A stretch of DNA of 64,000 bases, taken from positions 11,494 through 75,493 of the IMG/VR virus record IMGVR_UViG_3300046387_000246; one strand, given 5' to 3'. The position numbers and the translations under genes are program-made. The stretch comes from a virus. Position 1 is the stretch's first letter, and the number at the start of each line of letters is the position of its first letter. The notes under the pieces are model-generated. The model saw nothing but the letters and a program-made list of their open reading frames with translations. It was not told the origin of the DNA and did not search any database. Of this stretch, positions 471 through 28,890 are shown one piece after another.

Positions 471-500
471 TGCTACAATCCTACTAGATCATTATTTTTT

Positions 501-638
501 ATGGCAGTCTATTCGAATACAAACCTATTGAAGGAACCTAACCCTAAAAAAACACGTCAAGGGATGGGAAAACATAGCAAATTAAGTGCAACTTCACGTA
601 ATCAAAAGCGTAAGAGGTATCGAGGGCAAGGAAAGTGA
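501..638 (+). CDS. Small, very basic hypothetical protein (45 aa, ...PKKTRQG...KRYRGQGK), absent from the ORF track
   Basis: Hand translation gives MAVYSNTNLLKEPNPKKTRQGMGKHSKLSATSRNQKRKRYRGQGK. It fills the gap between PAAR and gp25 and has a late promoter upstream. Confidence 0.8.
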   Translation: MAVYSNTNLLKEPNPKKTRQGMGKHSKLSATSRNQKRKRYRGQGK

Positions 639-15100: not shown

Positions 15101-18100
15101 GTAACTCTGAAGTATTTGATATTGCTAATACTTACGTTCAAGGTGGCGGTGTATATCACGTAGATGGTGAAGTACCTCAAACTGTTTACGCAATGGAACA
15201 GGCACGAGATCTAGCGATCAAGTGTATCAATATGGTGACTATTAATACTGTACATACTTCATTACAGCAATGGAAAGATTTAACCGTTACTGGTGAGTAT
15301 AGTGTTACTGATAACTCTCACGGTGATGCAAGAACAATGATTCTTGCTAACAAGTGGTATATCGCTCACGAAGCATTGTACTATGCTAAACAGCAGAATC
15401 CTGGTTATACAGTATCTGGTGGAGATGAGCATTGTCTTTCTGATATTGTTGATGTTCTAGAAGCATTAGGATATAACACTGCTCACGGTGGTAATGACTT
15501 TGTATATGAAGCAACTGATAGAATTCTTCATTATGGTGTTACTTCTGGAGACAGAGATACCATCGTAAATGCGATGACTAAAGCCAGAGATATGGCAATC
15601 GCTGTTATGAGAAATACTGCTGTTGCAAAACAAGATACTTCACACGGTTGGACACAGTTTACTGATGCAACTCTAACTGCATCACTTGAAAGTCCACTTT
15701 GTGCAACAGTTGAGGCAACAATAACCACGTTGATGAATTTACTGATTAATGCCCTCGGTACTACTGCATCACCTGGTACAAGAGCAGCATTCTTAGCTGG
15801 TCAAACTAGAACAGAACCAAGTACAGCACTATTATCAGTTCCTGATGCTAATGCTTGTGTAAACCAGACATCTGCTATTACAAACTACTTCAGAATAATT
15901 ACTGATACATTACAGGATCCTACAGGTGCTGATAAAGTAACTTATCCTTGGTCTACAAGTAACTTACAAAGAGTTGCACCTCCATACTCATTTGTTGACA
16001 CTGAAAATCTTAAATCTATTAAGCACGCTTATAAAGATAAGTCATCTGGTGGATTCTTCGTCTTTGGTGAGACAGTTACAGGTATCACATCTGGAAACAC
16101 TGCTGAGATCATCGGTTCCAATGCAGGTAATAAGTGGATCTATACTAAGAACCCAACTGGTGCATTTACTGCTGGAGAATACATTACTAATAGTCTCTTA
16201 ACTAATACTAATGTAGTTGTAGATAACTTAGATTATGCTGTTGGTACTGGATCATTAGAATTTAACGGTAGTGCATACTTAACATATCCTGCAACTGAAA
16301 ATGTTGCTTTTGGAGATGGTGCTGGTGCTGCTGGTGACTTTACTATTGAATTATGGGTCAAGGTTACTGCTGTTAATACTAACCAAGTTCTTATTGACTT
16401 TAGAACTGCTGCTGGTTCTACAACCGAAGCATACTTAATCATTGTTAATAACACTGTTCGTTGGAACACAGGTAATGTTGATAGAATTACATCGTCTGCT
16501 AGTTTACAAGCAAATACTTGGACACATATCGCTGTAACACGTAACTCTGGTCTAACTAGACTATTTGTTGGTGGTTCAAAAGAAGGTGTTGATTATACAG
16601 ACGCTACAAACTATGGCAATATGCCAGTTAAGATTGGTGCGAACGTTGCTGGTTCTCTACCAATGACAGGTCATATTGAAAACTTGATGATTAAGAAAGG
16701 GATTGCTGAATACAGTTCTAGCTTTACTCCAAGTGCAACATATGATTCTGGAGACTTACGTCTAACATTTGGATTTGATGGTGAAGCACCTATTCCTCTT
16801 ATTAAAGGTGAAATTTATGCTACATTCCAACAAACAATAACATCTCAATGTTCTGCTGATGGTGTAGAACTATGGCGTGATGAGATTATGACTGAAGAGA
16901 TTGATCTTGCTCGTGATACTTATAGAGATTGTGCAGATATAATTGAGAAGAATAAGTATTGGATTGCTGAGGAAGCTATCGGAAGAATGAAGGCGAAGTA
17001 TCCTGACTTTATCATTCCTGGTGATACTGGTATATCTGATCAAGGTACTAAGACTTGTTTAAGAGATACTTACGAATATATTATACCTGCTATCGTTGCT
17101 GATCTTAAATACGGTGGTAACTATAATACTATTGTTGCAGGTAGAGGATATCTTGCTAACCAACAAGGTCAGTTAGCACACGTTAATGGAGAACTTCTCC
17201 AGTCCATCTATGCTTGGAGAGAAGTTGGTAAGTTATGTAATACTGTTATCACTGCTAACGCTGATGATCTAACTGGCGTATATACAACTCGTATTCGTGT
17301 TCCTAATTACTTTGCATCACCAGCCTCCAGTACAATCACTACTTACATTAGTGATATTATGGATGATCTTCTTGATGTTCTAGGTCCTACAGGTCACAGA
17401 TATAGAGACGGTGCTGATCTATTGTACTTTAATAGAAAGGCAATCGCTGAAGAAACAGTGATGTGGTTGGAAGAAAAATACAACATAATGATTGGGTTTA
17501 ATACCGCAGATAAACTCACTATACCTGGTGGATCTGTAGGTACCAATAAGTGTATTCGTGACTTGAGAGACCACATTATACCTGCGATCTCAGGAGATTT
17601 ACTTACTGGTGGTAATGCTAATATTCAAGGAATTATAGATTCTTATTTAAGTTCATCTGATAATATTTCTTACGTTGAGACAGAACTACTACCAATGCTT
17701 GATGCTATTGGTTATACTAAGTGGTTAATGGAGAAAGCATTACAGAACTGTTTGGTTGGTAGATCTGAAAACGTCGCTAATATTACAGGTATGACTCCAC
17801 TGACTATAGATGATCTATTCCAGTTGCAGTATACAGACATTCCAGTATTCCGTAAAGAAGTTTCTGCTGATGACAACTTTGCAGAGCAACCTCTTGATCC
17901 TCAGATATATGCAGGATCACAACGTGCTTTAGATGCTGCTGATCTAATCAATACTAATAAGAGAGCGATTGCTGAGGAAGCAGTTGACTTAACAATCAAA
18001 ACAGAAGCATTCAAACATTATGGATTTAGAGTTCCTGGTGGAAAGGTTAATTGTGAAGATGATATTGTTGATATTCTAGAAGGTGTTGTTCACGATCTTA

Positions 18101-21100
18101 GATTTAACTCTAACTCTAAGACTTACGATGCTGCATTATTGTATCTTGATTCTGAGAATGGATTGAAGCACGTTAAAGATCAACCTGCTGAAACACTCTT
18201 TGCTATGAAGATGGCAAGAGATATGACAGTTCTCGCGATTCAGAACCGTCTTGGATTTAAACCATATGCAACATATGCTCCAGCTGGCGGTGGTGCTACT
18301 GGTGGAGAGGGCTTTGCTGGCGGTGGTGCTATTGTAGAACCACGTGATACTTACTACGAAAACGCTTCTGGTAACAAGGCATATAATGCTGCTGATGAGA
18401 TTAGAAATAACTTAAGATTCATTGCTACCACTGCTGTTGGACGTGCTGTACAGCAGTATCCTTCACTAGCATTTGGTGGATATGGTTATCAGTCTTGTGT
18501 TGATGACTGTGTTGATATTCTAGAGTCATTAGTATTCAACTTATCACACGGTGGTAATAACAAGATGTGGTATGCCACTGAGTTTTATATCACTGATGCT
18601 AATGCTATTCAACACGTCAATAACCAAGCAGCTGAAGTTAAGTACGTATTCGAACAAGCACGTGACCTTGCTATTGCAGTAATGAGACAGCAGTTGATCA
18701 CAACTAACGGTTATACCGAAGGTGATGCGATCTATGATCTTGATATTACTATTGACCAAGCAAGTGGAACTGCTAAACATACACCATCAAATGCAACTTA
18801 TAATCCTAATACTGGAGACTTAGTTCTTACTATCACTGGTTCTCATTCAATTACTACAAGTGATACTCTTAGAATTGATACTAATTCATTAGTCTTTACT
18901 TGTGATCAAGATGATCATCAAACTTTACACCCATATCCAAGAGCAACTGATCCTGCTGCATTAGCAATTCTTCCTATTACTGCTGTAAGTGGACAGGATA
19001 TTACAGTCAATGTTGGTATAACACAGAGAATTAACTTTGATGCAAAGGATTCTACTTATGATCCTGAGACAGGTCTATTAACTCTTGATATTGGATCACA
19101 CAATCTAAGAATTGGTCAATCACTTAAGATTCTACAAGATGAACTACTATTCCGTTGTTCACAGGATAATTACAGAACTATTCATAAGTATCCTCGTATT
19201 ACTGACCCAGTAGTTGATAAAGCAATTGATATTGAAGCTGTCGGGACTACATTCCATACTGCTACATTTGCTTCTTGGAGACCTGACAGTGCGTTCTTAA
19301 GTATTACTATTCCTAATCACGGATTCAAGAATGGTGACAGAGTTAGAATCTCTAATCATTCTATGACATTCACTTGTTCTATGGATCAGCATTATAGTAA
19401 GAAGACTTATCCAAGACTTTCTGATGCTGCAAGTGGATTATTCCTACCAATTTCTAATGTAACTAGAAACAATTTTGATGTGAACATTGGTAAGAGTCCT
19501 ATCAAATACTTCACACCATCTCAAGCAAACTACAACCCAACTACAGGTGCACTAGAACTTATTCTTGGAAACCACGGTTTGACTGCTGGTACTCACATCA
19601 AGATAGCAGATAACTCTCTAACATTCACTTGTGATGAGGACGATAACGCTACTTATCACACATACCCAAGAACACAGACTGTACAGGTTACTCCAACAGA
19701 TGCTTCTTACAATCCTGTTAATGGTCACCTAACAGTTACTGTTGCTAATCACGACTTTAAGGTTGGTGAGTTTGTTAAGGTTGCTGAAAATGGAATCGTG
19801 ATGACTTGTGATATGGACGGAAATGCTTCTGAGCATCCATATCCACGTAAGAAGGATCCAGCATATGATTCTTGGATGGAAATTGCAGCAATATCTACAA
19901 ACACATTTACATTTAAGGTTGGAGAATCTCCTCAAATAAGTTTCACACCGACAGATGCGGTTTACACCCCTACTACTGGTGATATGAAACTCACTATTGG
20001 TACTCACAATCTACAAGCTGGTACTGCATTGAAGATTGAAGAAAGTGGAATCGTATTCAGTTGTGCACAAGATAATCACGCTACAGAGCATCCTTATCCA
20101 CGTAGTACTATTCTTACTGCTCCTAATATTTCCAACGCTATGTATGATCCAGCGGCTGGTTTATTAACAGTAACAACTGCTGCTGTTCACGGCTTCACAG
20201 ATGGCGATAAAGTTAAGTTTGCTGATAATGCTATTACATTCACTTGCTCAATGGATAGTAATGCAACAAATCATCCATATCCAAGATCAACTGACCCTGC
20301 ATCTGGTAAGTGGTTAGAAGTTGATGTAACTAGCACAACTGAGTTTACTTGTAACGTAGGTAGGACACCTAGTGTTGTATTCGATCCTTCAATGGTCGTT
20401 TATGATCCTTCTACAGGTATTATGGTTATGACCATTGGTGCTCACGACTTAACAGTTGGAACATCTGTAAGAATCGCTAATAATTCAATTACATTTAAGT
20501 GTGCTCAAGATAACTACGCTACTGATCACTCTTATCCTCGTTCTACTGACCCATTCTATGATACTTCTTGCCCAATCACTGCTGTTACTGACACCACAAT
20601 TTCAGTACAAGTTCTAAGTACAGTTCCATCTACAAACGTAACTGCTCATACTTGGCAACCACCTGCTAAGTTGACACCAACTAATGCAACTTACAACCCA
20701 AGTACAGGGGTTATGGAAGTTACTGTTGCTAATCACGGTTTAATGAATGGTGAGCACATCAGAATCGATGAAAATGCTTTCACATTCACTTGTAATCAAG
20801 ATAGTAATGCTACTAACCACGCATATCCAAGATCAACTGACCCTGCATACCATCAGTTCTTACCAGTTTCTAACGTAACTCAGAATACATTCCAAGTTAC
20901 TGTTCTTGCTGTAACACCTTCTACTAATACTACAACTCACGCATTTGTAAGTGCTGTTTCTGATAGCATTACTAGAGGTGTTGTGAGAAGCGGTGGTATT
21001 TACACTCACGCATTTGTAAGTGCTGTTGCTGGATCTCTTTCATATAAGAAAGACCAAGCATTTGATTCTTCAGTTACTATTAAGCACGAAGGTACTCCTT

Positions 21101-24100
21101 TAACTCCTACAGGTGCTTCTTATAGTGGAACTACTGGTATTTGTCAGATTACTAGCAACAATCACGGATTAATTGATGGTGATTATGTCAAACTAAGAGA
21201 TGGTGCATTGACATTTACTTGTGCTGAGGATAGCAATGCAACAAACCATCCTTATCCAAGACACACTGATTTAGCATCTAATAAGTGGTTAAAAGTAACT
21301 AACGTCACTCAGAATACTTTTGACATTCAAGTACTATTCTCTATCCCATCTACTAACCAAACTGCTCATTTATTTGTTTCTGGTTTAACTGATGGAATCG
21401 TTAAGAAGGACGATACAATTACTGTTAATGTTGGTGCAACTACTGCTGGTAACTACGAGCATAAGTTCTTATATGCAGAACCTGCTGCAATCAAGACTGG
21501 TGGTAATTACAACCACGTATTTAAGTCAGCGTTGCCATATTCTATTACTAAGTCTAAGGATCCATCATACAGTAATGTATTGACAATCGATGGTGCAACT
21601 TCAACTTCAATCACAGTTAATGTTCTTCCAGCAGTACCTTCTACTAACGAAACATCTCATACATTTATTTCTGCTTCCAATAATGCTATTACTACTGGTG
21701 GTCAGTATGTTCATAAGTTTATTGAAGCACAACCTGATGGTATTGAATTAGAATCTGGATCAATTACAGTTAATGTTGGTACAACACCTGCTGTATTCTA
21801 TAGTGTTGCTGATGCAATCTATGATGGTGAAACAGGTGATATGGAACTTATGGTTGGTGCACACGAACTTCTTGAAGGAACAAGTATCAAGATTCACGAT
21901 AATGCATTGACATTTACTTGTGATATGGATGATCACGCTTCTGAGCACGTTTATCCTCGTTTAACTGACCCTGCTGCAAACACTGCTTTAGTAATGAAGG
22001 AAGCAGGTTCCACTTCTCATACTGTTACTGATGCATCTTACAATACTATAACTGGTGATATGACCTGTACCCTTAATGGTCACGGTCTAAAAACCTCAAG
22101 AACACTCTCTCCAACCTTTGCTAAGTTTGATCCTACAACAGGTGATATGGAAATATATTCAGTTAATCACGGTATTACTGATGGAGAAAGTGTCAAACTT
22201 GCTGATGGTGCTGTTACATTTAGATGTGCTAAAGATCAATTCAGTTCAACTCATCCATATCCAAGATCAAGCGATCCTGCATCTGATCAATTCCTAGTTG
22301 TTAAACACGCTTCTCAAAATAGATTTACAGTTAACGTTGGTACTGGAGAAACTGGTGGTGCTATCTCTGACCAGAGTGAGCATAGATTCCAAGCATCAGT
22401 TCCTAATAGTATTACTGTTGCTCCTAATATGGTTAAGTTTGATCAGGATGCTATTACATTCACTTGTACTAAAGATAGTAATGCTACTAACCACGCATAC
22501 CCAAGAGCAGATGATCCTGTAGCTGGACATTGGATTCCAATTAAGGCAGTAACTACAAACACATTTACTGTTAATGTTGGTGTTTCAACTGCTGCTGGAA
22601 ACTATCCTCACACATTCGTCAGTGCAACTACTGGTGGAATGAAACTACAAACTGGATGGGTTAAGGTTAACGTTGGTTCTACACCTTCTACTGGGTTTGA
22701 TCCTGCCACTGCGAGTTTCAACGCAATCACAGGTATTATGACTCTTGGTTTGGGTAATCATTACTTCAATAGATTTGATAATATTAGAGTACAACCTGAG
22801 TCATTAATATTCACTTGTGGTTTAGATAACAATGCAACGAATCATCCATATCCTCGTTCTACTCTCATCGAATCTACTCCTAGTGATGTAGATTATAATC
22901 CTTCTACTGGATACTTAACTATCACACAGAATAATCACGGATTCTCTAATGGTGATTTTGTAAGATTCAAGGAAAACGCATTCACATTTACTTGTGATAT
23001 GAACGGTAATGCTGATAATCATTCATATCCTCGTACAACTGATCCAGTTTATGATAAGTGGGTTACAGTTGAGAGTGTTCAAGCAAATACCTTTAATGTA
23101 TTTGTAGGTAAGACACCTACTACTGGATTTGAACCATATGCTGTAGATTATAATCCTTCTACTGGATTGATGAAGATGACTATTGGTGAGCATAAGTTTA
23201 CTACAAGTCAGAGCATTCGCATCGCTGCGATGTCATTGAACTTCCGTTGTGATCAGGATGGTCAAGCTACAGACCACTTATATCCAAGATCTACTGACCC
23301 TCTATATCAAACTTCAGTACCTATCTCTGCTGTTGACGATACAAGTATTACTATACAAACTCTTGCATCTGCACCTTCAACTAATATAACCACTCACGTT
23401 TGGCAACCTCAAGTTGGTATTACTCCTACTGGTATTGATTATGATCCTGTGACTGGAATGATGACAGTTACTTGTTCTAATCACGGATATAACGAAGGAG
23501 ATATGGTTAAGTTTGCTGAGAACGGAATTACATTTACTTGTGATAAAGATAGTCACGTTTCTGATCACCCATACCCACGTAAGACAGACCCTGCTTGGGA
23601 TAAGTGGTTACCAATTGAAACTGTAACTGGTACAACATTCAGAGTTAAAGTTCTTGACAATGTTCCTTCCACTAATATTTCTACTCATACATTTAAATCT
23701 GCTGTTGCTAATTGTATAACAAGAGCAACTGTTAGAGGTGGTGGTGTTTACAATCATACTACTGTGTCTATTGCTTCTAATAGTATGGAGCATAAGAGAG
23801 ATCCATTCTATCAGAGAGGAATCAACATTGATCAGGTTGAAGAGACAACTCATACAGTAACCAATGCTTCATACAGTCCATCATCAGGTGTGATGAGACT
23901 TACAATACCTAATCATAATTTCACTGCTTCCACATCTCATACTGTAACTGATGCTCTTTATACACCTGCTGACAGTATGTTGAGATTGACTATTGCAGGT
24001 CACGGATTCAAGGAAGGTGACAGAATTAGAATCGCTGATAATTCTATTACATTTACTTGTGATCAAGATAGTAATACTACTAATCATTCATATCCAAGAT

Positions 24101-27100
24101 CAACTGATCCTGGTAGTGGTGCTTGGTTAGTTGCAACTAAGGTAAGTACAAATCATTTCCACGTTAATGTTGGTAACTTCTTTGGTAGAGGTCCGATTTC
24201 TAATCAGACAACTCACTCATTTGTATCTGCAACTGCTAATGGTGTAGAGAAAGCAAATGATAAAATCAAGATGGCAGAAAACTCAGTTACATTTACTTGT
24301 GCTAAAGATGATAATGAAACTCTCCATCCATATCCTAGACAAAATGATCCTGCATACAACGAATATCTACCTATTTCTGATGTAACTACTCACGAGTTTG
24401 ATGTATTTGTTGGTCGTGCAAACTTAGATCAGACTGTTCATCAGTTCTACTCTGCAACAGATAACGGAGTTACACATCCTACTGGAAATATTACAATCAA
24501 CGTTGGTATTTCTTCTAACACTACAACTCACAACTACGTTACCACTACTACAACTTACGATATAACTGGAGCGACCTACAGCCCAACTACAGGTGTAATG
24601 ACGCTGACCATTCCTAATCATAAGATGTATGTGGGTGAGTACATTTATCTTGCTGATGGTGCTGTTACCTTTAGTCAAGGTGCTTTACCAAATTCAAATG
24701 ATGAAGTAAGTGGAAGAATGATTCGTGTACAAGGTGTAATTTCTGATAACCGCATTCTTATTGTTTACGGAACTAATAGTAATACTGCATCTTGGTCATA
24801 TCAATCTGCTACTGCTGGTGCAGTTACTAAACCTAAGATTCTTGGTGGTGGTGTTTACAATCACAAGTATGTTAGTTCTACTGGTATGGCAGTTCGTGGT
24901 GGTGGACATTATACTCACCAATTCGAAGGTCCTGCTAAGACAACTGTTACTGACGCTGCATACAATCCTACTTCAGGTGTTATGACTGTTACAGTTCCTA
25001 ACCACGGTTGGGAAACTGGAGATGGTGTTATTATCGATGACGATTCTATCGTATTCACTTGCACACAAGATAGTGGTGCTACTGAACATCCATATCCAAG
25101 ATCAAAGGATCCTGTAAGTCGTCAGATTCTTACAATTTCAAATGTAACTACTAACACATTTGATGTACAGGTTCTAGCAACCACACCTTCTACAAACACA
25201 ACTACTCATACATTTGTAAGAGCAACTAAGCACGGTATCAGAAGAGCTGCTATTCACACTGGTGGTGCTTATAATCACATCTTTGTTAGTTCTACAAATG
25301 ATTCTCTAACATCATATGTTGGTGGTGGTGCTGCTCGTTGTCAAAACGAAGCATCTGCTATTACTACATTAATGAATATTCCTATCAATCTATTTGGTAG
25401 TGGATCAGCTAATCCAAATACTTACATAAGTGGTATTACTAGAACTCTACCGAAGGAGTGGCCACTAACAGGTGAACGTGCAATTCAACGTGATATTTCA
25501 ATCACATATGATAGTGGATCTGGTGACTGTGCAACTGAAGCATCTACAATTAGTACATTATTTGGATACTTAATTAATGTTATTGACACTGCTTCTAAAG
25601 GAAATGGTAACTACTTTACTAACCAATCAATAACAAGAAACGCACCTGCTCAAACTAATACACTTCTTGCTGGTGGTGGTATTTGCTATAACGTAGTTTC
25701 TGCTATGTCAACATTGGCAGACTTGTTAGAAGATACTCTTGGACAAGCTCCTGAAATGTATCGTCAAACTGCAAGACTACTATTATTGAATGACACATAC
25801 GTCAGACGTGAATCATATTATAAGACAGTACAAACTTACGCAGGTTATAACGGTGACGAAGATTTCGGTGATTCAGTACGTAAAGCATTTATTTATGACT
25901 TACTCACAGACGGTAATATTGCAACAATCGACTTAGTTAATAGTTGGTTTGATGCCGAGGGTAATTTCATCGCGTATCCTGGCATCTTCAGGACACAATT
26001 AATCTTCCACGCAGACGCTGTTAAAGAAATGTGTGTCAAGATTATTAAACAGAAAGCAGATAATCCTGGTGGATATAACCAAGAGATTCCTTATGAGAAT
26101 AAGGAGTATCGTCCTACTGAGACTGCTGAACACAAATTACATCAACTATATCATATAATTGACGTTGCACTTAACCGTTCTACATTCCCATCAATTTACT
26201 TGAAGTTTAACTTTGATGTTGGTGCTCAGGTTAATCAGAATGGTTCACTTGATGCTCCTGATGGACACAACTTCGAAGCATATGATCGTGTAACTTATAC
26301 AGTTCTTGGTACTGCTATTGAAGAATTAGATCGTACAACTTATATCATTCACCCAGACACATCAGAGAATCTAATCTGGTTGGCAGAAGAGATTGATGGT
26401 GAGAAACTTACCGTACTATCTCCAGGCACACCTGGTCAGACTCACCAATTATCTGTATCTGATGAGACTGGTATCAATAGAGTTCCTACAACTTACGGTA
26501 CACGTAATGTTCCTACACCTATTACTGGTGGTATCAATACTGCTGATATATTCTTCGGTGAAACTTCAGGTGCATATGGTGAAGTTATTAGAATCCAAGA
26601 CAACTTAGCAGATATTCTATACGCTGTTAAGTGGATGCCACTCACACGTACAAGTGATCCTGAGACATTTGTTAACGGTGAAGAAGTTGTTAAGACTGGT
26701 GCTACTGGTAACAAAGGAACTATCCTCGCTACAGACAATGCAACATATGTGAAGATTATTATTACTGGTGGAAACATTCAATCTGGTGATGCAATCGAGG
26801 GATCTACCTCTGGTGCTACAGGTAATATTGGATCTGATATTCACGATCGCTTATTGATCAACATCAAGCAAGGTGATTTCATTGCTACTGATATACTTTA
26901 TGCTAAGAATGCTACAAGTAAGGCAGAAGCATTGATAGTACGTAATAACGATGGTGCTCTACTTGATAACCAATCTGGACGTGTCACATTTGACATTGAA
27001 TCTGTTAAAGGTCAATTCAATAGTGGCGATGTTATCTACGGTTCTGTTACTGATCAAATCATCGAGATTGAAGGATTTAATATCCTTCCTGGATTTGGAG

Positions 27101-28890
27101 AATATATTCACTCAACATTCATAACAAGATTTGAATATGCATCATTAGTTACTGACTTCGGTGTTGATGATACCTTTAAGGTTGGTGATACATTACAATT
27201 ACAGAACGCTGGACAATCTGTAGGACATACATTTATTGTTACTGAACACGATGCAGACAATAATTACGTATACCTTGCAAATGAAGAAGGTAGATACGTA
27301 GGTATTGGTGAAGATTTAACTGTAATCCAAGGTGATACTGCATATCAACTTGCTAAGATTCCACCTGGATCTAACTTCCCAAGCGTTACAACTTCTGCAA
27401 TAACTACAGTAAATATTTCAAACACAACTGCTTATGGAAAGATTGAAAAAATTGAACAAATCGGTCTACGTGCGATCATTCACCTTGGTGATACTTCTGG
27501 AACATTCGTTAAGAACGCTCAAATCATCGGTGATTATGGATTCAGAGGTGCTTGTTCAGTTGCTAAGACTTTACGTGGACGTGTTAGAAGGTACTTCAGA
27601 GGATTCGATGGAGAAACTAAGAACTTCAAGTTAACACAAACAAACGGTACTGCATACTTCCCAGATCCAGCAGGTCATATGATGATCTTCGTGAACGGTA
27701 TTCTACAACCACCAGGCGGTAGTAACGCATTCACTGCATTCTCTGACAACATTCAATTCACTGAAGCACCTGCAATTAACTCTACCTTCCACGGTGTGTA
27801 CGTAGGTAAGTTAAGACAGTTGGATGACATCTCATTCGACTTCGATTCATTACGTAACTCATTCAACTTGAAGTTAGGTGGAGTGTTCTACTCCTTGACA
27901 CTAACTGAAGGTGTACAGTCAAATACAATTAGACCTGAAAACAACATCATCTGTCAGTTAAATGGTGTTATTCAGGAACCAGGCATCGGTTTTGAGATCG
28001 TTGGTTCACGTATTATCTTCTCTGAAGTTCCTCGTGCTGGTTCAACATTCGTTGCATTCTCCTACATTGGTTCTGATGTTGACGTTATTGCTGCAACAGT
28101 CGTACCACCAATCGAAGCTGGTGACAAACTAGCAATTGAAGGTGAAGAATTTGAAAGAACTGTTGCTCTGATTGAGTCTTCTAACTCACTAATTACCTTC
28201 GAATACACTGGATCTGTTCGTGGACGTAACGCTTCTGCTCTTGCAACTATCGAGAAAGGACGTATCACTGAAGCGATACTTACAAACTCAGGTGATGGTT
28301 ATACATCTCGTCCAAACGTTGATGTGATTTCCTCCTCTGGTTTCGGTGGTAAGATTAAAGCACTCGTTGGTCTCGCACGTATTGATGTTAAGAATGCGGG
28401 TCAAGGTTACTCACATCCATCGATTGAAGTTGCTACTACAGTCGCAGACGACTTCTTAGGACCTATAGGTGCTGGTGTTAACGGTGGTATCGATATTTAC
28501 GATCCTAATTACATTCCACCTGGCGAAACTGAGGCAGTTGGTGAAGCATTTATAACCATTGAATCACAACCTGTTAACACAACAGTTAACCAAGGTGATC
28601 CTGCATCATTCACTGTGATCGCATCCACAACACCTGCTGGTGGCACTATTAACTATCAGTGGCAGAAGAAGGATTATGGTACTAACGCTTGGATAAATAT
28701 ATCAGGTGCTACATCACCTACCTTCAATGCTCCTGCAACTACACAGGCAGATGGTGGTGATGAATTCAGAGTCGGACTTACATCAGTCGGTGCAACTCCA
28801 ACATTATCTCAATCAGCAGTTCTAACGATTAACATCGGTGCAACTACAGTTGATAACTTCAGTCCAGATCAAATCTTTGATGACAACTAA
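3190..28890 (+). CDS. g7: Giant (8,566 aa) baseplate wedge initiator gp7-like protein with many inserted domains (Gly-rich beta repeats, YHYH-like, beta-propeller, two LamG, CBM-like, helical repeats, 21 Cys/His beta-domains, C-terminal Ig-like)
   Basis: Follows gp6. gp7-type segments are QIPAFIKED..F..LL.QYYKSQE (N-term), IKTISDFYASKGT (~5275-5313) and IQDSYFYQNFSY..HPVG (~13594-13701). The reading frame is uninterrupted. Confidence 0.85.
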   Translation: MKAITISDRLQDQIPAFIKEDNDQFVNLLTQYYKSQEKSGRPYDVLSNILRYTDIGSGEFDPNFLSSTSAVLERVDPTQKTIIAENVNYFLENDGTIKIDEEVIYYDKITHSPDIVFTPGVDKAEFDRKIQEFEPISDQFDGSTTLFPLRLLGKPVTPQSSQHLLVIVNNEFKYPDVDYFLEGDKIRLVNPPETPTGLLTGAINTVRYLIGYTSIPVRSLDTITVANDAKEFELKLDGSSYTPLSTVSSIVVVNRVEKRPYEDFTIFENKLIFKEDIGENSVIAIRSIELIAPEFGGGASAVAQIEDEKLKSVIVKEGGSGYRLSFAPKISVASTKGTGFGATAEALVNGIKETQLLFAGQGYASNNPPVVIVDSPADPEGKTAQIRAVVDDSIEGVSQLIVDSSGSGYDRIPSIKFQNPGGATISNPTLTNGVIDPDSITVTDDGSGYTTAPLVYLDLPTGDNAIRANVVATIDAFGRVNGITVVSGGQGYTSVPRARIIDPVGAQILDVNVTAGRVTNIELLTGGAGYTDAPSVYIVDNRKDITGAPAGGTGATAVATIFNGEITDINITSFGNGYSETEPPQVFIAAPPAPEASCDVGFGEITGFTIHSAGSGYQPSAFVNCKRGVSSTSSFDQKGNQVYSTEASTIQSSHEIGGVIHNLDTLFAKELYRRYVNQYLPNAEIDYEKVNAPQIIKTISDFYASKGTKISTQYLFKMLFSENVDVSYPKDEVIKPSAASWNVDTVLRAELIEGDPIDLLDSQLIQYVDDVDNSVKGASALIENVIAINTGVGTVYELAISEETLQGSFTIPYKTTLVESLNTTESIITVDSTIGWPERNGTIRINDTEQVQYKEKTLNQFIECTRSKNGVVEDWDAGTVIHSDIFVYCNRGTNTEIKLRVLGIADAKSTVLTDTGSYYLPGDKLNVASLGSTATDQRITSWLYNVKKLINVTDIVPGGLNNQTATVTCSNKHGLLVGDTVTIYGANPTVFNGTFLVTSRISDFLFEYNIPAPADAAPQGNILLSVDLNKGKSTEEGISIAIRDFTTNVQNTFFDDTHSYIASSGIPNYQVGPFVGSALLPGNQRKLIRIPRVINTISKREQTSFGPIGAWVNGVSAWSYKSETKIKYGGVIDISITNVGQGYDAANPPVIEISGGNGTGAAASVVVNGALSEIEVTSGGTGYTSSPLVSIVGGNGFGATATAVITNGVVSKILVENPGQGYTSQPDVSISGGEGTGATATAEVRGPIQSVSIDNAGSSYTASPTIKLNSGEGAVAQSIIINGRIVSIAIIAAGRAYTTAPEIVINGDGYGAVARATIGTVGEDRGKVIGVTVVNRGIGYTTGNTTIRLEAVGEMATFTANVFEWTRNLQDELGQSFDTARGYVFAGYNTQYGGEYAHVSDPKQLRYVLGDNVFKNQSTQQLQELATGWLHSPILGWAFDGNPIYGPYGYIDATDQSSGVRRIRSSYKIKDVLIYDAATNPTPVRADGPLLSNYSAGSFIEDYEYTFQYGDLDQYNGRFCKTPEFPEGIYAYFVSIDASDAGNPIFPYICGSQLYSKADEWNYSQNAVQTNIPLGVVRFRDPYEDVDIDIDRQPNQDTDILVTEFGEELIFEIEDTNRDGVINNLEDSTPINIAEEPVLQLFDYYPKVSTRSEVDIDIETTTKFEDAQVDGFVVENPGISYKVNDKLYFDNTDTEGFGASAKVDSVKGLSISGYSSYMANDIPYGRITTPSEHELRIGDEVIVTSNPILDSTNKTYRVKVISGVEELTITQNGVGYSSELPPTYELITDTGQDFQLSLVRTDAGGVSQANIINSGSGYSASNPPQIRVSHPQRYKKATYFLSFIKEATGILSVNDVRVADDRTIYVVGQRDITGGDTCGVLAKFNSDGRLLWQRTLVPTVPNANPKSLKWNSLYVENSNPHNIYVIGETVPNITNLTHNPDVIVAKYTSGFDNANNPDGILQWQRDIAGISGATRRDYATSIALDQDGRVMIGGYTDSNSLYADDMWVALLDIDGSIMEKRKIASSAVSERLHQLKWKSTDRFLFVGINEPDNTSDIIIGETVYDSATIELAWSKKITNASYKFKNPTFTIDEYGSVYVTATAVNTDGKNYGVLYVKFDNDVYTSTIHQKIFVPSGTYQSCENGGVKFDIFGNVDVSCSVQEDFNAAKSVTLKVGWNTGTAINSTVLSETSGIGFKPVAVSNDNSGDTIVVGNKVESDQLAIFNWDTADNLFDETYNDTLKTGTNKQWYATGNAVIDDTKKFAGASSIKLDAANSLALQYGSDVATSWTMEGFWALGSTQYAAANTKPIFYTSTDNAGNVVKFGLDADQSSPNYGKSFIDISGTTTFSAASVYFAVLNNEVFIHVAAVKERVGVGDYKYRFFINGIETQVLTSTTIDVNLKDASVGPDGTPGSVNNWIGWIDNIVISPTAKYVEAFTPPDTPILGSNSISKGFLYKVDKDKTQLGSFTLNDVESGHQITLASTSAYTFNTQAVTLNPWTIGPAGIQILDYGDVVAQHVPGVFTVTSTDQSYANKTSTIPTPGGKKLLLTTTVVPKYYFKDATYTQIDLVKTISFNQPATFTKGATLQQYSVIGGSDVISAYGQIVEVGASSVKIGKIIGTFDNTKLLKSTANDINELERNFTEEKTETQWATNFNYTVGDVVYNDKKLYTAQTTGVSSTIAPVHTTGVVSDGAINWAYTSASGIYVVDLANTSYNGSTLATFASWKAFSASDYTIKIEEIYDDSNFIKGDTIDADAVNLQFAVDATGKIATFTGLLGVKKISLIAKLNKDVIPSGSLTNTDLVYCSAASRHNFELNDIIFTENFGTNDYNGSFFVEEIFNSRDFSFRLRSTAVQDPTFAGTGSSVANVNIYAKHPKFLFVRGHQYIFDLDDASNLGYYLSFSKDNQYKLEYPFINIVREGTPGFTDDDSPTPLVKFIINEDVTNISYYFDPSRTGANSPVGEGSFIDVITSPYQGTFRVTGTSNGGKTFDFRLLNEPEKTTGAVGNDEFGLPRSTYSTTSIKAIGPISAIKLVNPGGFYQKLPIVTDIASNREIEKVRVTNGGTEYVNGVYYNVPISGDGEGAMCNITVTDDGDFTGVITDVTLTSAGKGYKTATIDVDAIPGILGPLLAGSGAVLDVVIPDEGSGASVFLQGKSIGKIKKLKNNEFGFGYSHDYTLKPEITFPVNLQLFNTALLAQIKITDPGSGYTSTPAVVIEGGGGSGASAEAIVKNNRLSEIIIKDPGAGYSSEPTVTLKSEFNYVVNVDLGYLQFNFPHGITNGAEVTLRAEDLGSTVGILPKPSSAGLVSLSSSQTYYAIAGQANGLESDQLRISLTQLDAESGSYITFLTQGEGRQILLTEVFGGQATAIVETSRFLAGELVYQGTSLQLASATGYVSTNEGWQIGPRILKLENYDGVWNPGERVTGEVSRASGLIDNLSIARGTLEIASLTNTPGQFIDDVGKPSEIVQKIQDSYFYQNFSYVIKSQTPINQWRKPVLETNHPVGFNLFGELSITGGKDISGRKVVSDLIKEVNINSFTNINKITSFANAQPIYTQFNNTEVLFRQKRLTNSEEILTSIVKKLDDISEDFDGIRTQFPLNVEGGSITAADNQMFVLINGVAQSPSVAFSTSGPSVVFTEAPKAPSRIKFRKVTLAQKIITRLTFSSIGGIFPLLGNTVRGIVSEATATVIDSGTNYIDVIDGEGTFQINENVLNSATGFNSVLSDVSPQTSKTIYEQGERITNLQGKFAVIEENNLDDGTVTNLLVVSRTSGTAEFETGEFDLGFNDIIYSARSKIAATIQSIAPYQDEVSNQIIDTVDLSPSSSFFGLVFQRVPSITFPNVILDNISETVINPTELYTETVNNQDFLDFENVRNQEVRLYNQSGTAFVAGDKLRLKKLYFGNSSLRRGHDVRTFNAAEALTRNARFIAEESVGAMLAFYPSFSIQTGRNADCEDDIVDALTMMAWQLEFDGNSEVFDIANTYVQGGGVYHVDGEVPQTVYAMEQARDLAIKCINMVTINTVHTSLQQWKDLTVTGEYSVTDNSHGDARTMILANKWYIAHEALYYAKQQNPGYTVSGGDEHCLSDIVDVLEALGYNTAHGGNDFVYEATDRILHYGVTSGDRDTIVNAMTKARDMAIAVMRNTAVAKQDTSHGWTQFTDATLTASLESPLCATVEATITTLMNLLINALGTTASPGTRAAFLAGQTRTEPSTALLSVPDANACVNQTSAITNYFRIITDTLQDPTGADKVTYPWSTSNLQRVAPPYSFVDTENLKSIKHAYKDKSSGGFFVFGETVTGITSGNTAEIIGSNAGNKWIYTKNPTGAFTAGEYITNSLLTNTNVVVDNLDYAVGTGSLEFNGSAYLTYPATENVAFGDGAGAAGDFTIELWVKVTAVNTNQVLIDFRTAAGSTTEAYLIIVNNTVRWNTGNVDRITSSASLQANTWTHIAVTRNSGLTRLFVGGSKEGVDYTDATNYGNMPVKIGANVAGSLPMTGHIENLMIKKGIAEYSSSFTPSATYDSGDLRLTFGFDGEAPIPLIKGEIYATFQQTITSQCSADGVELWRDEIMTEEIDLARDTYRDCADIIEKNKYWIAEEAIGRMKAKYPDFIIPGDTGISDQGTKTCLRDTYEYIIPAIVADLKYGGNYNTIVAGRGYLANQQGQLAHVNGELLQSIYAWREVGKLCNTVITANADDLTGVYTTRIRVPNYFASPASSTITTYISDIMDDLLDVLGPTGHRYRDGADLLYFNRKAIAEETVMWLEEKYNIMIGFNTADKLTIPGGSVGTNKCIRDLRDHIIPAISGDLLTGGNANIQGIIDSYLSSSDNISYVETELLPMLDAIGYTKWLMEKALQNCLVGRSENVANITGMTPLTIDDLFQLQYTDIPVFRKEVSADDNFAEQPLDPQIYAGSQRALDAADLINTNKRAIAEEAVDLTIKTEAFKHYGFRVPGGKVNCEDDIVDILEGVVHDLRFNSNSKTYDAALLYLDSENGLKHVKDQPAETLFAMKMARDMTVLAIQNRLGFKPYATYAPAGGGATGGEGFAGGGAIVEPRDTYYENASGNKAYNAADEIRNNLRFIATTAVGRAVQQYPSLAFGGYGYQSCVDDCVDILESLVFNLSHGGNNKMWYATEFYITDANAIQHVNNQAAEVKYVFEQARDLAIAVMRQQLITTNGYTEGDAIYDLDITIDQASGTAKHTPSNATYNPNTGDLVLTITGSHSITTSDTLRIDTNSLVFTCDQDDHQTLHPYPRATDPAALAILPITAVSGQDITVNVGITQRINFDAKDSTYDPETGLLTLDIGSHNLRIGQSLKILQDELLFRCSQDNYRTIHKYPRITDPVVDKAIDIEAVGTTFHTATFASWRPDSAFLSITIPNHGFKNGDRVRISNHSMTFTCSMDQHYSKKTYPRLSDAASGLFLPISNVTRNNFDVNIGKSPIKYFTPSQANYNPTTGALELILGNHGLTAGTHIKIADNSLTFTCDEDDNATYHTYPRTQTVQVTPTDASYNPVNGHLTVTVANHDFKVGEFVKVAENGIVMTCDMDGNASEHPYPRKKDPAYDSWMEIAAISTNTFTFKVGESPQISFTPTDAVYTPTTGDMKLTIGTHNLQAGTALKIEESGIVFSCAQDNHATEHPYPRSTILTAPNISNAMYDPAAGLLTVTTAAVHGFTDGDKVKFADNAITFTCSMDSNATNHPYPRSTDPASGKWLEVDVTSTTEFTCNVGRTPSVVFDPSMVVYDPSTGIMVMTIGAHDLTVGTSVRIANNSITFKCAQDNYATDHSYPRSTDPFYDTSCPITAVTDTTISVQVLSTVPSTNVTAHTWQPPAKLTPTNATYNPSTGVMEVTVANHGLMNGEHIRIDENAFTFTCNQDSNATNHAYPRSTDPAYHQFLPVSNVTQNTFQVTVLAVTPSTNTTTHAFVSAVSDSITRGVVRSGGIYTHAFVSAVAGSLSYKKDQAFDSSVTIKHEGTPLTPTGASYSGTTGICQITSNNHGLIDGDYVKLRDGALTFTCAEDSNATNHPYPRHTDLASNKWLKVTNVTQNTFDIQVLFSIPSTNQTAHLFVSGLTDGIVKKDDTITVNVGATTAGNYEHKFLYAEPAAIKTGGNYNHVFKSALPYSITKSKDPSYSNVLTIDGATSTSITVNVLPAVPSTNETSHTFISASNNAITTGGQYVHKFIEAQPDGIELESGSITVNVGTTPAVFYSVADAIYDGETGDMELMVGAHELLEGTSIKIHDNALTFTCDMDDHASEHVYPRLTDPAANTALVMKEAGSTSHTVTDASYNTITGDMTCTLNGHGLKTSRTLSPTFAKFDPTTGDMEIYSVNHGITDGESVKLADGAVTFRCAKDQFSSTHPYPRSSDPASDQFLVVKHASQNRFTVNVGTGETGGAISDQSEHRFQASVPNSITVAPNMVKFDQDAITFTCTKDSNATNHAYPRADDPVAGHWIPIKAVTTNTFTVNVGVSTAAGNYPHTFVSATTGGMKLQTGWVKVNVGSTPSTGFDPATASFNAITGIMTLGLGNHYFNRFDNIRVQPESLIFTCGLDNNATNHPYPRSTLIESTPSDVDYNPSTGYLTITQNNHGFSNGDFVRFKENAFTFTCDMNGNADNHSYPRTTDPVYDKWVTVESVQANTFNVFVGKTPTTGFEPYAVDYNPSTGLMKMTIGEHKFTTSQSIRIAAMSLNFRCDQDGQATDHLYPRSTDPLYQTSVPISAVDDTSITIQTLASAPSTNITTHVWQPQVGITPTGIDYDPVTGMMTVTCSNHGYNEGDMVKFAENGITFTCDKDSHVSDHPYPRKTDPAWDKWLPIETVTGTTFRVKVLDNVPSTNISTHTFKSAVANCITRATVRGGGVYNHTTVSIASNSMEHKRDPFYQRGINIDQVEETTHTVTNASYSPSSGVMRLTIPNHNFTASTSHTVTDALYTPADSMLRLTIAGHGFKEGDRIRIADNSITFTCDQDSNTTNHSYPRSTDPGSGAWLVATKVSTNHFHVNVGNFFGRGPISNQTTHSFVSATANGVEKANDKIKMAENSVTFTCAKDDNETLHPYPRQNDPAYNEYLPISDVTTHEFDVFVGRANLDQTVHQFYSATDNGVTHPTGNITINVGISSNTTTHNYVTTTTTYDITGATYSPTTGVMTLTIPNHKMYVGEYIYLADGAVTFSQGALPNSNDEVSGRMIRVQGVISDNRILIVYGTNSNTASWSYQSATAGAVTKPKILGGGVYNHKYVSSTGMAVRGGGHYTHQFEGPAKTTVTDAAYNPTSGVMTVTVPNHGWETGDGVIIDDDSIVFTCTQDSGATEHPYPRSKDPVSRQILTISNVTTNTFDVQVLATTPSTNTTTHTFVRATKHGIRRAAIHTGGAYNHIFVSSTNDSLTSYVGGGAARCQNEASAITTLMNIPINLFGSGSANPNTYISGITRTLPKEWPLTGERAIQRDISITYDSGSGDCATEASTISTLFGYLINVIDTASKGNGNYFTNQSITRNAPAQTNTLLAGGGICYNVVSAMSTLADLLEDTLGQAPEMYRQTARLLLLNDTYVRRESYYKTVQTYAGYNGDEDFGDSVRKAFIYDLLTDGNIATIDLVNSWFDAEGNFIAYPGIFRTQLIFHADAVKEMCVKIIKQKADNPGGYNQEIPYENKEYRPTETAEHKLHQLYHIIDVALNRSTFPSIYLKFNFDVGAQVNQNGSLDAPDGHNFEAYDRVTYTVLGTAIEELDRTTYIIHPDTSENLIWLAEEIDGEKLTVLSPGTPGQTHQLSVSDETGINRVPTTYGTRNVPTPITGGINTADIFFGETSGAYGEVIRIQDNLADILYAVKWMPLTRTSDPETFVNGEEVVKTGATGNKGTILATDNATYVKIIITGGNIQSGDAIEGSTSGATGNIGSDIHDRLLINIKQGDFIATDILYAKNATSKAEALIVRNNDGALLDNQSGRVTFDIESVKGQFNSGDVIYGSVTDQIIEIEGFNILPGFGEYIHSTFITRFEYASLVTDFGVDDTFKVGDTLQLQNAGQSVGHTFIVTEHDADNNYVYLANEEGRYVGIGEDLTVIQGDTAYQLAKIPPGSNFPSVTTSAITTVNISNTTAYGKIEKIEQIGLRAIIHLGDTSGTFVKNAQIIGDYGFRGACSVAKTLRGRVRRYFRGFDGETKNFKLTQTNGTAYFPDPAGHMMIFVNGILQPPGGSNAFTAFSDNIQFTEAPAINSTFHGVYVGKLRQLDDISFDFDSLRNSFNLKLGGVFYSLTLTEGVQSNTIRPENNIICQLNGVIQEPGIGFEIVGSRIIFSEVPRAGSTFVAFSYIGSDVDVIAATVVPPIEAGDKLAIEGEEFERTVALIESSNSLITFEYTGSVRGRNASALATIEKGRITEAILTNSGDGYTSRPNVDVISSSGFGGKIKALVGLARIDVKNAGQGYSHPSIEVATTVADDFLGPIGAGVNGGIDIYDPNYIPPGETEAVGEAFITIESQPVNTTVNQGDPASFTVIASTTPAGGTINYQWQKKDYGTNAWINISGATSPTFNAPATTQADGGDEFRVGLTSVGATPTLSQSAVLTINIGATTVDNFSPDQIFDDN
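14923..18771 (+). repeat. Helical protein repeats (DAA.LI..N...IAEEA ... C..D..D...A...DL..GGN ... ARD.A) in the gp7-like protein
   Basis: Six units are visible here and a seventh degenerate one at ~25750-26180. The closing helices of three units lie at ~25330-25743. Confidence 0.8.
18772..25317 (+). repeat. 21 copies of a ~100-aa Cys/His beta-domain (TP..A.Y.P.TG...NHG...FTC..D....H.YPR..DP...VNVG...H.FVSA)
   Basis: The motif recurs in the translation: 20 YPR-bearing units plus one degenerate unit. The copies are diverged at DNA level. Confidence 0.9.

What the first reader, a model, noticed from the sequence alone, without database searches (positions are those of the whole stretch)
18772..25317. 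Balanced recursive nesting of 21 domains inside one another, predicting a branched appendage from one polypeptide
Seen in sequence: a complete unit has three parts, A (TP..A.Y.P.TG..NHG..FTC..D..H.YPR), B (.DP....VNVG) and C (H.FVSA...I). Most units are interrupted by another unit after YPR, in mid-A, in mid-B, after VNVG or within C, and the missing parts reappear later in last-in-first-out order. Opening order: D1 (waits for C), D2 (mid-B, ..IEAVG), D3, D4 (after YPR), D5, D6, D7, D8, then D9 complete (~20665-20976). Closing order: D8 'GVVRS'; C7 'GGIYTHAFVSA'; B6 'KKDQAF..[D10]..KDDTITVNVG..YEHKF'; C5 'GGNYNHVF'; B4+C4 'SKDPSY..SITVNV..SHTFISA'; C3 'GGQYVHKF'; B2 'ESGSITVNVG'. A second branch follows, D11[D12[D13]][D14[D15[D16[D17]]][D18[D19]][D20]]. 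It closes with C11 'GGVYNHKY', C2 'GGHYTHQF[D21]' and C1 'GGAYNHIFVSS'. In my manual parse every opened unit is closed and the depth reaches 9. Inference: if each unit folds, the chain forms a tree rather than beads on a string, giving a dendritic virion appendage built by recursive domain insertion. I do not know of this architecture being described at this depth.
Basis: partly seen in the sequence, partly recalled or inferred. Interest (0 to 1): 0.95.

Follow-up and report, generated by a model that had tools for sequence, protein, structure and literature searches.

The report
Self-nested beta-barrel tree in cyanophage gp7
A giant (8,566-residue) baseplate protein of a marine cyanobacterial virus contains 21 copies of one small beta-barrel domain inserted into each other's loops up to nine deep, so the chain forms a branched tree of domains, deeper than the six levels a 2026 survey reports as its most complex case.

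Summary
Observation confirmed in every detail. Residues 5196-7374 of the 8,566-aa ORF (nt 18775-25311) parse, by an exact maximum-score nested-profile algorithm, into one tree of 21 homologous ~104-aa units. Depth is 9 and no residue is left over.

Independent checks agree:
- Each orphan piece, scored alone, resumes the profile where the last-opened unit stopped (14 of 16; 0 of 200,000 permutations reach this).
- The five insertion hot spots all fall in loops of a pLDDT-97 AlphaFold model.
- In a 519-aa five-domain subtree model (pLDDT 89.8), single solved barrels superpose on ranges that run from a split unit's first piece to its last.

Relatives in 37 IMG/VR contigs show the same principle with other trees (depth up to 9-11).

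The protein sits after gp6 and matches gp7-like baseplate wedge/virion families of T4-like cyanophages. The barrel resembles the endosialidase and E1 FCCH barrels; no Pfam family covers single units. The closest known architecture is the nested SBHM array (Si3) of cyanobacterial RNA polymerase.

The three-dimensional shape, a metal site and an adhesin role are inferences.

This scan had already found the same architecture in other cyanophage genomes (e1-5320718, e1-5771915, e1-5320722, e1-5335961).

The parts
3190..28890 (+). Giant ORF, 8,566 aa, gp7-like baseplate wedge / virion structural protein
   Evidence: Single open frame. PHROG phrog_701 (3232 bits) and phrog_2885 'baseplate wedge subunit'. 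It follows a gp6 homologue at 1080-3173 (phrog_219). tblastn hits are annotated gp7 or virion structural protein in cyanomyoviruses.
18775..25311 (+). Whole nested tree = span of root unit D1 (aa 5196-7374). D1's own pieces are nt 18775-19035 and 25261-25311.
   Evidence: The C piece, scored alone, maps to profile columns 90-103 after D1 stopped at column 87.
19036..25260 (+). D2 (depth 2). Pieces 19036-19254, 21748-21801, 24898-24936, 25243-25260. Hosts D3, D11 and D21 in three different loops.
19255..21747 (+). D3 (depth 3). Pieces 19255-19509, 21697-21747.
19510..21696 (+). D4 (depth 4), split after YPR. Pieces 19510-19683 (profile columns 3-58) and 21553-21696 (columns 57-104).
19684..21552 (+). 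D5 (depth 5). Pieces 19684-19941, 21499-21552.
19942..21498 (+). D6 (depth 6). Pieces 19942-20127, 21043-21099, 21406-21498. Hosts D7 and D10. This 519-aa subtree was folded.
   Evidence: pLDDT 89.8. In one search, single barrels align over model range 1..519 with 71-72 aligned residues.
20128..21042 (+). D7 (depth 7). Pieces 20128-20382, 20989-21042.
   Evidence: In one search, E1 FCCH and phi92 endosialidase barrels align over model 56..369/374 with 77-80 residues, rmsd 2.3-3.1 A.
20383..20988 (+). D8 (depth 8). Pieces 20383-20667, 20971-20988 ('GVVRS' tail).
   Evidence: the tail is predicted as a strand.
20668..20970 (+). D9 (depth 9), uninterrupted.
   Evidence: Folded alone: pLDDT 97.1, pTM 0.88.
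21100..21405 (+). D10 (depth 7), uninterrupted, inserted in mid-B of D6.
21802..24897 (+). D11 (depth 3). Pieces 21802-22014, 22645-22695, 24841-24897. Hosts D12 and D14.
   Evidence: The 17-aa middle piece is the only piece that did not map on its own.
22015..22644 (+). D12 (depth 4), split in mid-A (column 30). Pieces 22015-22104, 22417-22644. Hosts D13 (22105-22416, uninterrupted).
   Evidence: (profile columns 2-28 and 30-102).
22696..24840 (+). D14 (depth 4). Pieces 22696-22872, 23794-23847, 24478-24552, 24832-24840. Hosts D15, D18 and D20.
   Evidence: This subtree is collinear with the D6 subtree at 46% identity.
22873..23793 (+). D15 (depth 5; pieces 22873-23130, 23737-23793), containing D16 (23131-23418 + 23725-23736), containing D17 (23419-23724).
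23848..24477 (+). D18 (depth 5), split in mid-A. Pieces 23848-23934, 24253-24477. Hosts D19 (23935-24252).
24553..24831 (+). D20 (depth 5), degenerate uninterrupted unit lacking FTC...YPR.
   Evidence: 38 bits; 84.5 bits.
24937..25242 (+). D21 (depth 3), uninterrupted, inserted within C of D2.
18370..18771 (+). Helical (phycobiliprotein-like) module M6 that hosts the whole tree. Its last helix follows at nt 25318-25425.
   Evidence: M6 plus the helix after the tree aligns to the complete module M2 across the junction (gain 35.5 against a control mean of 3.3). Pfam Phycobilisome hit in this repeat region.

Best explanation
Residues 5196-7374 of a gp7-like baseplate wedge protein of a T4-like cyanomyovirus are a recursively self-inserted array of 21 copies of one ~104-residue, nine-strand beta-barrel. 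The fold is like the endosialidase and E1-FCCH barrels.

How it is built: each guest barrel is spliced, with linkers of 0-10 residues, into one of five surface loops of its host barrel (profile columns ~30, ~57, ~74, ~87, ~99). The chain leaves a half-made barrel, builds the guest and the guest's own guests, then returns to supply the host's missing strands. Units are therefore completed in last-in-first-out order.

The result is a rooted tree with a trunk of depth 9. Branch points are D2 (3 guests), D6 (2), D11 (2) and D14 (3).

Inferred, not shown:
- Both ends of the array lie side by side and are plugged into a helical module of the same protein.
- Two-stranded junctions make it a fairly rigid, branched protrusion of the baseplate. 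By analogy with T4 gp7 there would be six per virion.
- It most likely serves as a multivalent surface, possibly glycan-binding, or as a spacer/decoration module.
- A near-invariant Cys/His set may clamp the returning strand, possibly through a metal.
For: Shown by sequence:
- One tree, 21 units, depth 9, no leftover residue; 2625 bits nested against 2020 flat. Same tree with an independent broader HMM.
- Own length of every rejoined unit is 93-112 aa.
- Shuffled continuation pieces score 2481 +/- 31 bits.
- Pieces scored alone resume where the LIFO partner stopped, 14 of 16; 0 of 200,000 permutations reach this.

Shown by prediction:
- D9 alone folds with pLDDT 97.1 and pTM 0.88.
- 435 insertion events in 528 distinct units fall in five clusters. 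All five are loops of that model (strands listed).
- The D6[D7[D8[D9]]][D10] model has pLDDT 89.8 and pTM 0.67. No segment is below 50, and the orphan pieces are strands.
- Contiguous solved barrels (4p22_B, Z 7.8, 79 aligned residues, rmsd 2.6 A; 4hiz_A, Z 7.0, 77 residues, rmsd 2.3 A) align to model range 56..369/374. That range runs from D7's first piece to the end of its distant C piece. Z is the same as for uninterrupted D9 (7.7 / 7.4). D6 aligns likewise over model 1..519.

Comparative:
- L004, L005, L006 and L010 (about 60-69% identity) keep the same topology.
- L003 has 25 units, with extra units inserted in loops.
- Other relatives have different trees up to depth 9-11.
- C43, H24, Y54-P55-R56, D59 and H92 are 91-99.8% conserved in interrupted and uninterrupted units alike.

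Identity of the protein.
Against: Pairing in the model is inferred from aligned ranges only, which give just the first and last aligned residue.

Only the D6 subtree (depths 6-9) was modelled. The D1-D5 pairs, separated by 600-2,100 aa, rest on sequence alone.

C pieces are mutually similar, so sequence cannot prove which C closes which unit beyond the order and type match.

Structural matches to known barrels are middling (Z below 8).

The function (adhesin or spacer), the metal site, rigidity and copy number per virion are untested inferences.
Confidence: 0.85

Rival explanations
1. The nesting is only an evolutionary scar. Duplicative insertions broke the host units, and only the uninterrupted units (D9, D10, D13, D17, D19, D20, D21) still fold. 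The interrupted ones serve as extended or disordered linkers.
For: Orphan pieces are short (6-48 aa) and score only 4-58 bits individually. No experiment shows that they fold.
Against: Interrupted units keep the near-invariant residues as strictly as complete ones (C43 in 527 of 528 units, H92 in 483 of 528). They also keep a full complement of 100-112 own residues. In the subtree model all pieces have block-mean pLDDT of 79 or more and are strands, and solved barrels align over ranges that end on the distant pieces. The same split topology is conserved at about 60-69% identity.
Confidence: 0.07
2. The units fold, but not in last-in-first-out pairing. Orphan strands complement the nearest neighbouring barrels or swap between copies (domain swapping between the six gp7 chains), giving a mesh rather than a tree.
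For: C pieces are interchangeable in sequence: shuffled orders still reach about 2480 bits. Stacks of C pieces lie next to each other in the chain.
Against: The type of each orphan piece (tail only, C, B+C, half-B) matches the LIFO requirement 14 times out of 16, which no permutation reaches. Linkers at junctions are 0-10 residues, so guests must sit on the host loop. The AlphaFold ranges for D7 and D6 fit LIFO partners.
Confidence: 0.05
3. Artefact: a mis-assembled repeat region, or an over-flexible parser that would nest any repeat array.
For: The programme returns deep 'nested' parses for shuffled sequences too, so depth by itself is not evidence.
Against: A 25.7-kb open frame. An identical locus on an independent IMG/VR contig, and the same topology on several others at about 60-89% identity. 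Piece-by-piece mapping without the parser gives the same pairing. HMMER local hits already show the split units.
Confidence: 0.02

Closest known systems
Si3 insertion in the trigger loop of cyanobacterial RNA polymerase beta' (RpoC2): eight sandwich-barrel hybrid motifs, four of them discontinuous (PMC10895346). Cited as a six-level nest in a 2026 survey of domain insertions (PMC13114784).
   Same: Copies of one small beta domain are inserted into each other, so several units are built from distant parts of the chain. The whole array is itself an insertion with both ends together. It forms an elongated surface arm (150 x 50 A in Si3).
   Different: The domain family and the best fold matches differ: FCCH/endosialidase-type barrels were found, and no SBHM was listed. 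The host protein is a virion baseplate protein, not a polymerase. There are 21 units against 8, and depth 9 (up to 9-11 in relatives) against six at most. The tree truly branches, with up to three guests per host. Topology varies strongly between relatives.
Beta-barrel domain of phage endosialidases (phi92 4hiz, K1F 1v0e; Pfam PF12195) and the FCCH domain of ubiquitin E1 (4p22, 2v31; PF16190)
   Same: Best structural matches of the unit: Z 7.7 with rmsd 2.4 A over 80 residues, and Z 7.4. From my own knowledge of these structures, not tested here, both are inserted domains in their proteins. There are weak cumulative Pfam signals over the region, and the nearest named Atlas cluster carries PF16190.
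   Different: No single unit matches either Pfam family at E <= 0.01. The Z scores are middling. Those barrels occur once per protein and are not self-nested.
Tandem Ig-like / FN3 / BIG decoration domains of phage virion proteins (for example T4 Hoc), from general knowledge
   Same: Many copies of a small beta domain exposed on a virion protein, proposed to give weak multivalent binding to surfaces.
   Different: Those are beads on a string joined by one linker. Here units are joined by two strands and form a tree, and only 7 of the 21 are contiguous.
Earlier reports of this scan on other cyanophage genomes (e1-5320718, e1-5771915, e1-5320722, e1-5335961)
   Same: The same domain family and the same nested principle in gp7-like giant proteins, with 21 units and Si3 named as the closest known case.
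   Different: Other genomes. Those reports give depths of 4-8. Here an exact parser, permutation controls, a 37-locus survey and a five-domain model were added.

Membership tests
Recursive self-insertion architecture (Si3-type nested beta-domain array) | Units are homologous copies of one domain | tested here: met
   All 21 rejoined units align over 104 columns with shared motifs. Each unit's own score is 84-172 bits.
Recursive self-insertion architecture (Si3-type nested beta-domain array) | Host units are interrupted in loops and completed later in last-in-first-out order | tested here: met
   (14 of 16 pieces; 0 of 200,000 permutations). Insertion sites coincide with model loops.
Recursive self-insertion architecture (Si3-type nested beta-domain array) | Discontinuous pieces form one compact domain in three dimensions | tested here: inconclusive
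   Prediction only. In the subtree model (pLDDT 89.8), single solved barrels align over ranges 56..369 (D7) and 1..519 (D6). There are no coordinates or experimental data. D1-D5 were not modelled.
Recursive self-insertion architecture (Si3-type nested beta-domain array) | Unit has the sandwich-barrel hybrid motif fold and sits in the RNA polymerase trigger loop | tested here: inconclusive
   No SBHM chain appeared among the 50 best structural matches. The context is a phage baseplate protein, not RNA polymerase.
E1_FCCH (Pfam PF16190) | Score at or above the gathering threshold, with a significant domain match | tested here: inconclusive
   The whole 2,182-aa region scores 34.7 bits against a cut-off of 29.5, but no single stretch is significant. 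None of 82 single units matches at E <= 0.01. Structural Z is 7.4-7.8.
Endosialidase beta-barrel (Pfam PF12195) | Score at or above the gathering threshold | tested here: not met
   25.3 bits against a cut-off of 35. Structural similarity only: Z 7.7, rmsd 2.4 A, 80 residues.
T4-type gp7 baseplate wedge protein | Gene follows gp6 in the baseplate module and matches the phage baseplate-wedge protein families | tested here: met
   The upstream ORF matches phrog_219, baseplate wedge subunit (E 1.7e-191). The giant ORF matches phrog_2885, baseplate wedge subunit (820 bits), and phrog_701. Relatives are annotated gp7.
T4-type gp7 baseplate wedge protein | Detectable sequence similarity to a solved gp7 structure | tested here: not met
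   phmmer of aa 1-2600 against all PDB chains gave no match at E <= 0.01. Fold-level comparison of the N-terminal part was not done.

The most novel reading that the evidence does not exclude
The tree is an evolvable, branched adhesin scaffold. Cyanomyoviruses would diversify not only the sequence but also the topology of a 20-26-barrel dendrimer on each baseplate wedge, by gaining and losing whole subtrees, as a determinant of host-surface recognition. Its assembly would need obligatory inside-out folding, with outer barrels waiting up to about 2,100 residues for their last strands, stabilised by a Cys/His (metal) clamp between the early and late pieces.
Probability: 0.2. Interest if true: 0.9.

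Novelty: new variant of a known kind. Interest (0 to 1): 0.78.

Why it matters
If the tree folds as predicted, it is the deepest and most branched natural case of domain-in-domain insertion that I could find. It has 21 units and nine levels (up to 9-11 in relatives), against six levels in the case highlighted by a 2026 survey of 2.7 million classified domains.

It poses a sharp folding problem. The root barrel cannot close until about 2,160 further residues have been made.

It offers a natural series of variant topologies for studying how insertion-tolerant folds evolve, and how rigid branched protein scaffolds could be designed.

For phage biology, it defines a large, variable, surface-exposed part of the baseplate of abundant ocean cyanophages. 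That part is annotated only as 'virion structural protein' and is too long for the usual structure databases.

Tried and rejected
- Complex prediction of D4's first piece (58 aa) against its distant B+C piece (48 aa), each with a 47-row alignment: no verdict (ipSAE 0.29 and 0.28; the mark is 0.32; controls were not run). This counts neither for nor against.
- Greedy excision with HMMER stalled at D8 because the local hit ended at column 95.
- A greedy glocal parser closed open units wrongly by stealing the next unit's first strand.
- A first version of the exact parser, pruned to the 40 best ends, gave a nonsensical parse. These three attempts were replaced by the unpruned exact parser.
- Depth in shuffled sequences stays at 9-10, so depth alone was rejected as a statistic.
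- Foldseek against the PDB gave no match at E <= 0.001.
- A profile search of PDB sequences gave only a chance-level hit (iota-carbonic anhydrase, E 0.007).
- No SBHM chain was listed among the structural matches.
- megablast against phage records found only a 53-nt match.
- Literature searches for a prior description of nesting in cyanophage gp7 found none. The library lacks most subscription journals.


Full report
**Context**

The window is part of a T4-like cyanomyovirus.
- tblastn of the region finds 321 Synechococcus/Prochlorococcus phage records. The hits lie in genes annotated gp7 baseplate wedge or virion structural protein.
- The finding lies in one open frame, 3190..28890 (+), 8,566 aa.
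- That frame follows a gp6 homologue (phrog_219, E 1.7e-191). It matches phrog_701 (virion structural protein) and phrog_2885 (baseplate wedge subunit).
- Other recognisable parts of the giant protein are a YHYH domain (aa 1365-1537), a Laminin_G_3/ConA-like domain and phycobilisome-like helical repeats.

**Checking the observation**

All 20 YPR motifs of the protein lie in aa 5249-7302.

I built a 104-column HMM from the six uninterrupted units. Its local hits show units that stop at column 58, 74 or about 83, stray pieces that begin at column 55 or 89, and two units split around a complete unit at column about 29.

I then wrote an exact dynamic programme. For each candidate start, taken from right to left, it finds the best glocal alignment to the profile. 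It is allowed to jump over any already-scored complete unit, and it maximises the summed score.

The result is a single tree covering aa 5196-7374, with 21 units and depth 9. It scores 2625 bits against 2020 bits when nesting is forbidden.

A broader profile (21 rejoined units plus 81 diverse complete units from relatives) gives the same tree, and every unit scores 84-172 bits on its own residues. The rejoined units align cleanly over all columns. Each has 93-112 own residues, and together they use all 2,179 residues.

**Controls**

The parser will nest anything, so depth is not a valid statistic: shuffles also give depth 9-10. I used three other measures.
- Permuting the 20 continuation pieces lowers the total to 2481 +/- 31 bits (maximum 2534, n=16), against 2625 observed.
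- Without the parser, I aligned every piece alone to the profile. The continuation pieces begin at the column where the last-opened unfinished unit had stopped. Examples: D4 covers 3-58 then 57-104; D6 covers 3-58, 57-73, then 72-104; D12 covers 2-29 then 30-103.
- Of the 16 continuation pieces of 12 aa or more, 14 resume within 5 columns of the expected position. Both misses come from one 17-aa piece of D11. None of 200,000 permutations reaches 14; the maximum is 13 and the mode is 4.

**The fold**

D9, with an 82-sequence alignment, folds at pLDDT 97.1 and pTM 0.88 as a nine-strand all-beta domain.

The best solved matches are the beta-barrel of phi92 endosialidase (Z 7.7, rmsd 2.4 A, 80 residues) and the FCCH barrel of ubiquitin E1 (Z 7.4). 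After these come FNR-type FAD-binding barrels. These Z values are middling.

Pfam gives only cumulative weak signals over the whole region: E1_FCCH at 34.7 bits and End_beta_barrel at 25.3 bits. No single unit matches any family at E <= 0.01. A profile search of PDB sequences is empty.

The family is small. It has 794 representatives among 1.84 billion proteins, nearly always with several copies per protein. In BFVD it is seen in cyanophage structural, baseplate and tail-fibre proteins.

**Do insertions respect the fold?**

I parsed 37 related IMG/VR loci. They contain 528 distinct rejoined units and 435 insertion events.

The events fall in five clusters: columns 20-31 (81 events), 49-62 (57), 66-78 (78), 80-92 (158) and 96-101 (60), with one event elsewhere. 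Each cluster corresponds to a loop between strands of the D9 model. The strands are at 7-11, 16-20, 31-34, 39-43, 51-54, 65-67, 75-79, 92-97 and 102-104. The tight hairpins receive almost no insertions.

Linkers at the junctions in the window are 0-10 residues.

**Do split units re-form?**

I folded the contiguous 519-aa subtree D6[D7[D8[D9]]][D10], with a 40-row alignment of orthologous and paralogous subtrees. Mean pLDDT is 89.8, pTM is 0.67, and no segment is below 50. The orphan pieces (model residues about 346-386 and 489-519) are predicted as strands with block-mean pLDDT of 79-94.

Coordinates are not returned by the tool, but a structural search gives an indirect read-out.
- Contiguous ~82-residue solved barrels align to model range 56..369/374: 4p22_B (Z 7.8, 79 residues, rmsd 2.6 A), 9mc4_A (Z 7.7), 4hiz_A (Z 7.0, 77 residues, rmsd 2.3 A) and 2v31 (Z 6.8).
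- That range runs from D7's first piece (model 63-147) to its C piece about 200 residues later (model 350-367). The scores equal those of uninterrupted D9.
- Two other barrels align over model 1..519 with 71-72 residues, which fits the three pieces of D6.

This is the result that last-in-first-out pairing predicts. A range gives only the first and last aligned residue, so I rate it as strong support rather than proof.

**Relatives**

- L001 is identical to the window.
- L004, L005, L006 and L010 (D9 about 60-62% identical; subtree about 66-69%) keep the same 21-unit, depth-9 topology.
- L003 has the same trunk but 25 units, with additional units inside loops of the D14 branch.
- Other lineages have quite different trees, with 4-26 units and depth from 1 to 9-11.

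Within the window, the D14 subtree is collinear with the D6 subtree at 46% identity over 516 positions. D8 and D16 are reciprocal best matches. This indicates duplication of a whole sub-branch.

**How it most likely works**

Shown: the topology, the conservation and the predicted foldability.

Inferred:
- The chain builds barrels inside-out. The innermost close first, and D1 closes last, after about 2,160 further residues.
- Two-stranded junctions with very short linkers make a stiff, branched protrusion whose two ends sit together.
- That protrusion is itself inserted before the last helix of a helical module. M6 plus the helix at aa 7377-7412 aligns to the complete module M2 across the junction.
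- By analogy with T4 gp7, there would be one copy per wedge, so six trees per baseplate.
- The near-invariant C43, H24, H52, D46 and H92 lie on both early and late pieces. They could form a metal or hydrogen-bond clamp.
- The resemblance to the endosialidase barrel suggests carbohydrate binding. This is a lead from memory and was not tested.

**Comparison with what is known**

Nested insertion of copies of one beta domain is known from the Si3 insertion of cyanobacterial RNA polymerase. Si3 has eight SBHMs, four of which are built from distant chain segments, and it forms a 150 x 50 A arm (PMC10895346). A 2026 survey cites this as a six-level nest, its most complex case (PMC13114784).

The present array differs from Si3 in fold family, host protein, size (21 units), depth (9) and branching. 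I found no paper describing it.

This scan has, however, already reported the same architecture in other cyanophage genomes. I therefore rate it as a new variant of a known kind. The architecture is well supported; the function is open.

Noticed in passing
window 17416-18771 and 25318-25779: The helical modules flanking the tree appear nested too. Three modules opened before the tree (M4, M5, M6; 'C.DD.VD.L' cores at aa 4788, 4955, 5103) lack their last helix. Three 'C....S.I..L' helices follow the tree (aa 7384, 7447, 7499). Rejoined M6 and M5 align to the complete module M2 across the junction (gain about 36 against a control mean of about 3). Total nesting would then be about 12 levels.
   Followed up: partly
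window ~16930-17080 (aa ~4581-4630) and the repeats at aa 3920-5190: These helical repeats hit Pfam Phycobilisome (PF00502) at 34.7 bits against a cut-off of 22.2, with no single significant stretch.
   Followed up: no
window 19942-21498 versus 22696-24840: The D6 subtree and the D14 subtree share insertion columns (58, 88, 98/99, 74) and align collinearly at 46% identity. This indicates duplication of a whole branch, after which D18 and D14 gained D19 and D20.
   Followed up: partly
all 21 units; profile columns 24, 43, 46, 52, 59, 92: A near-invariant His24, Cys43 (527 of 528 units), Asp46, His52 (80%; Lys 17%), Asp59 and His92 across 528 units from 37 loci. This is a candidate metal site joining early and late pieces. 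Geometry was not checked because no coordinates are available.
   Followed up: partly
window 7282-7800 (aa 1365-1537) and ORF 28890-30635: A YHYH domain (PF14240, E 5e-30) lies inside the giant protein. A related YHYH-type virion protein (phrog_25852) is encoded immediately downstream.
   Followed up: no
window ~16300-16690 (aa ~4371-4501): A Laminin_G_3 / ConA-like lectin domain (PF13385, E 2e-16) sits between two groups of helical modules.
   Followed up: no
L027, L021 (IMG/VR contigs): Relatives whose best parse reaches depth 10-11, with 24-26 units. L055/L056 encode a 740-aa protein with four un-nested tandem units. L064 encodes a 647-aa protein with D plus D[D[D[D]]].
   Followed up: partly
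window 35781-42995 and 43520-50212: Two further very large ORFs (2,404 and 2,230 aa) lie downstream. The first matches phrog_358, of unknown function, over its full length.
   Followed up: no
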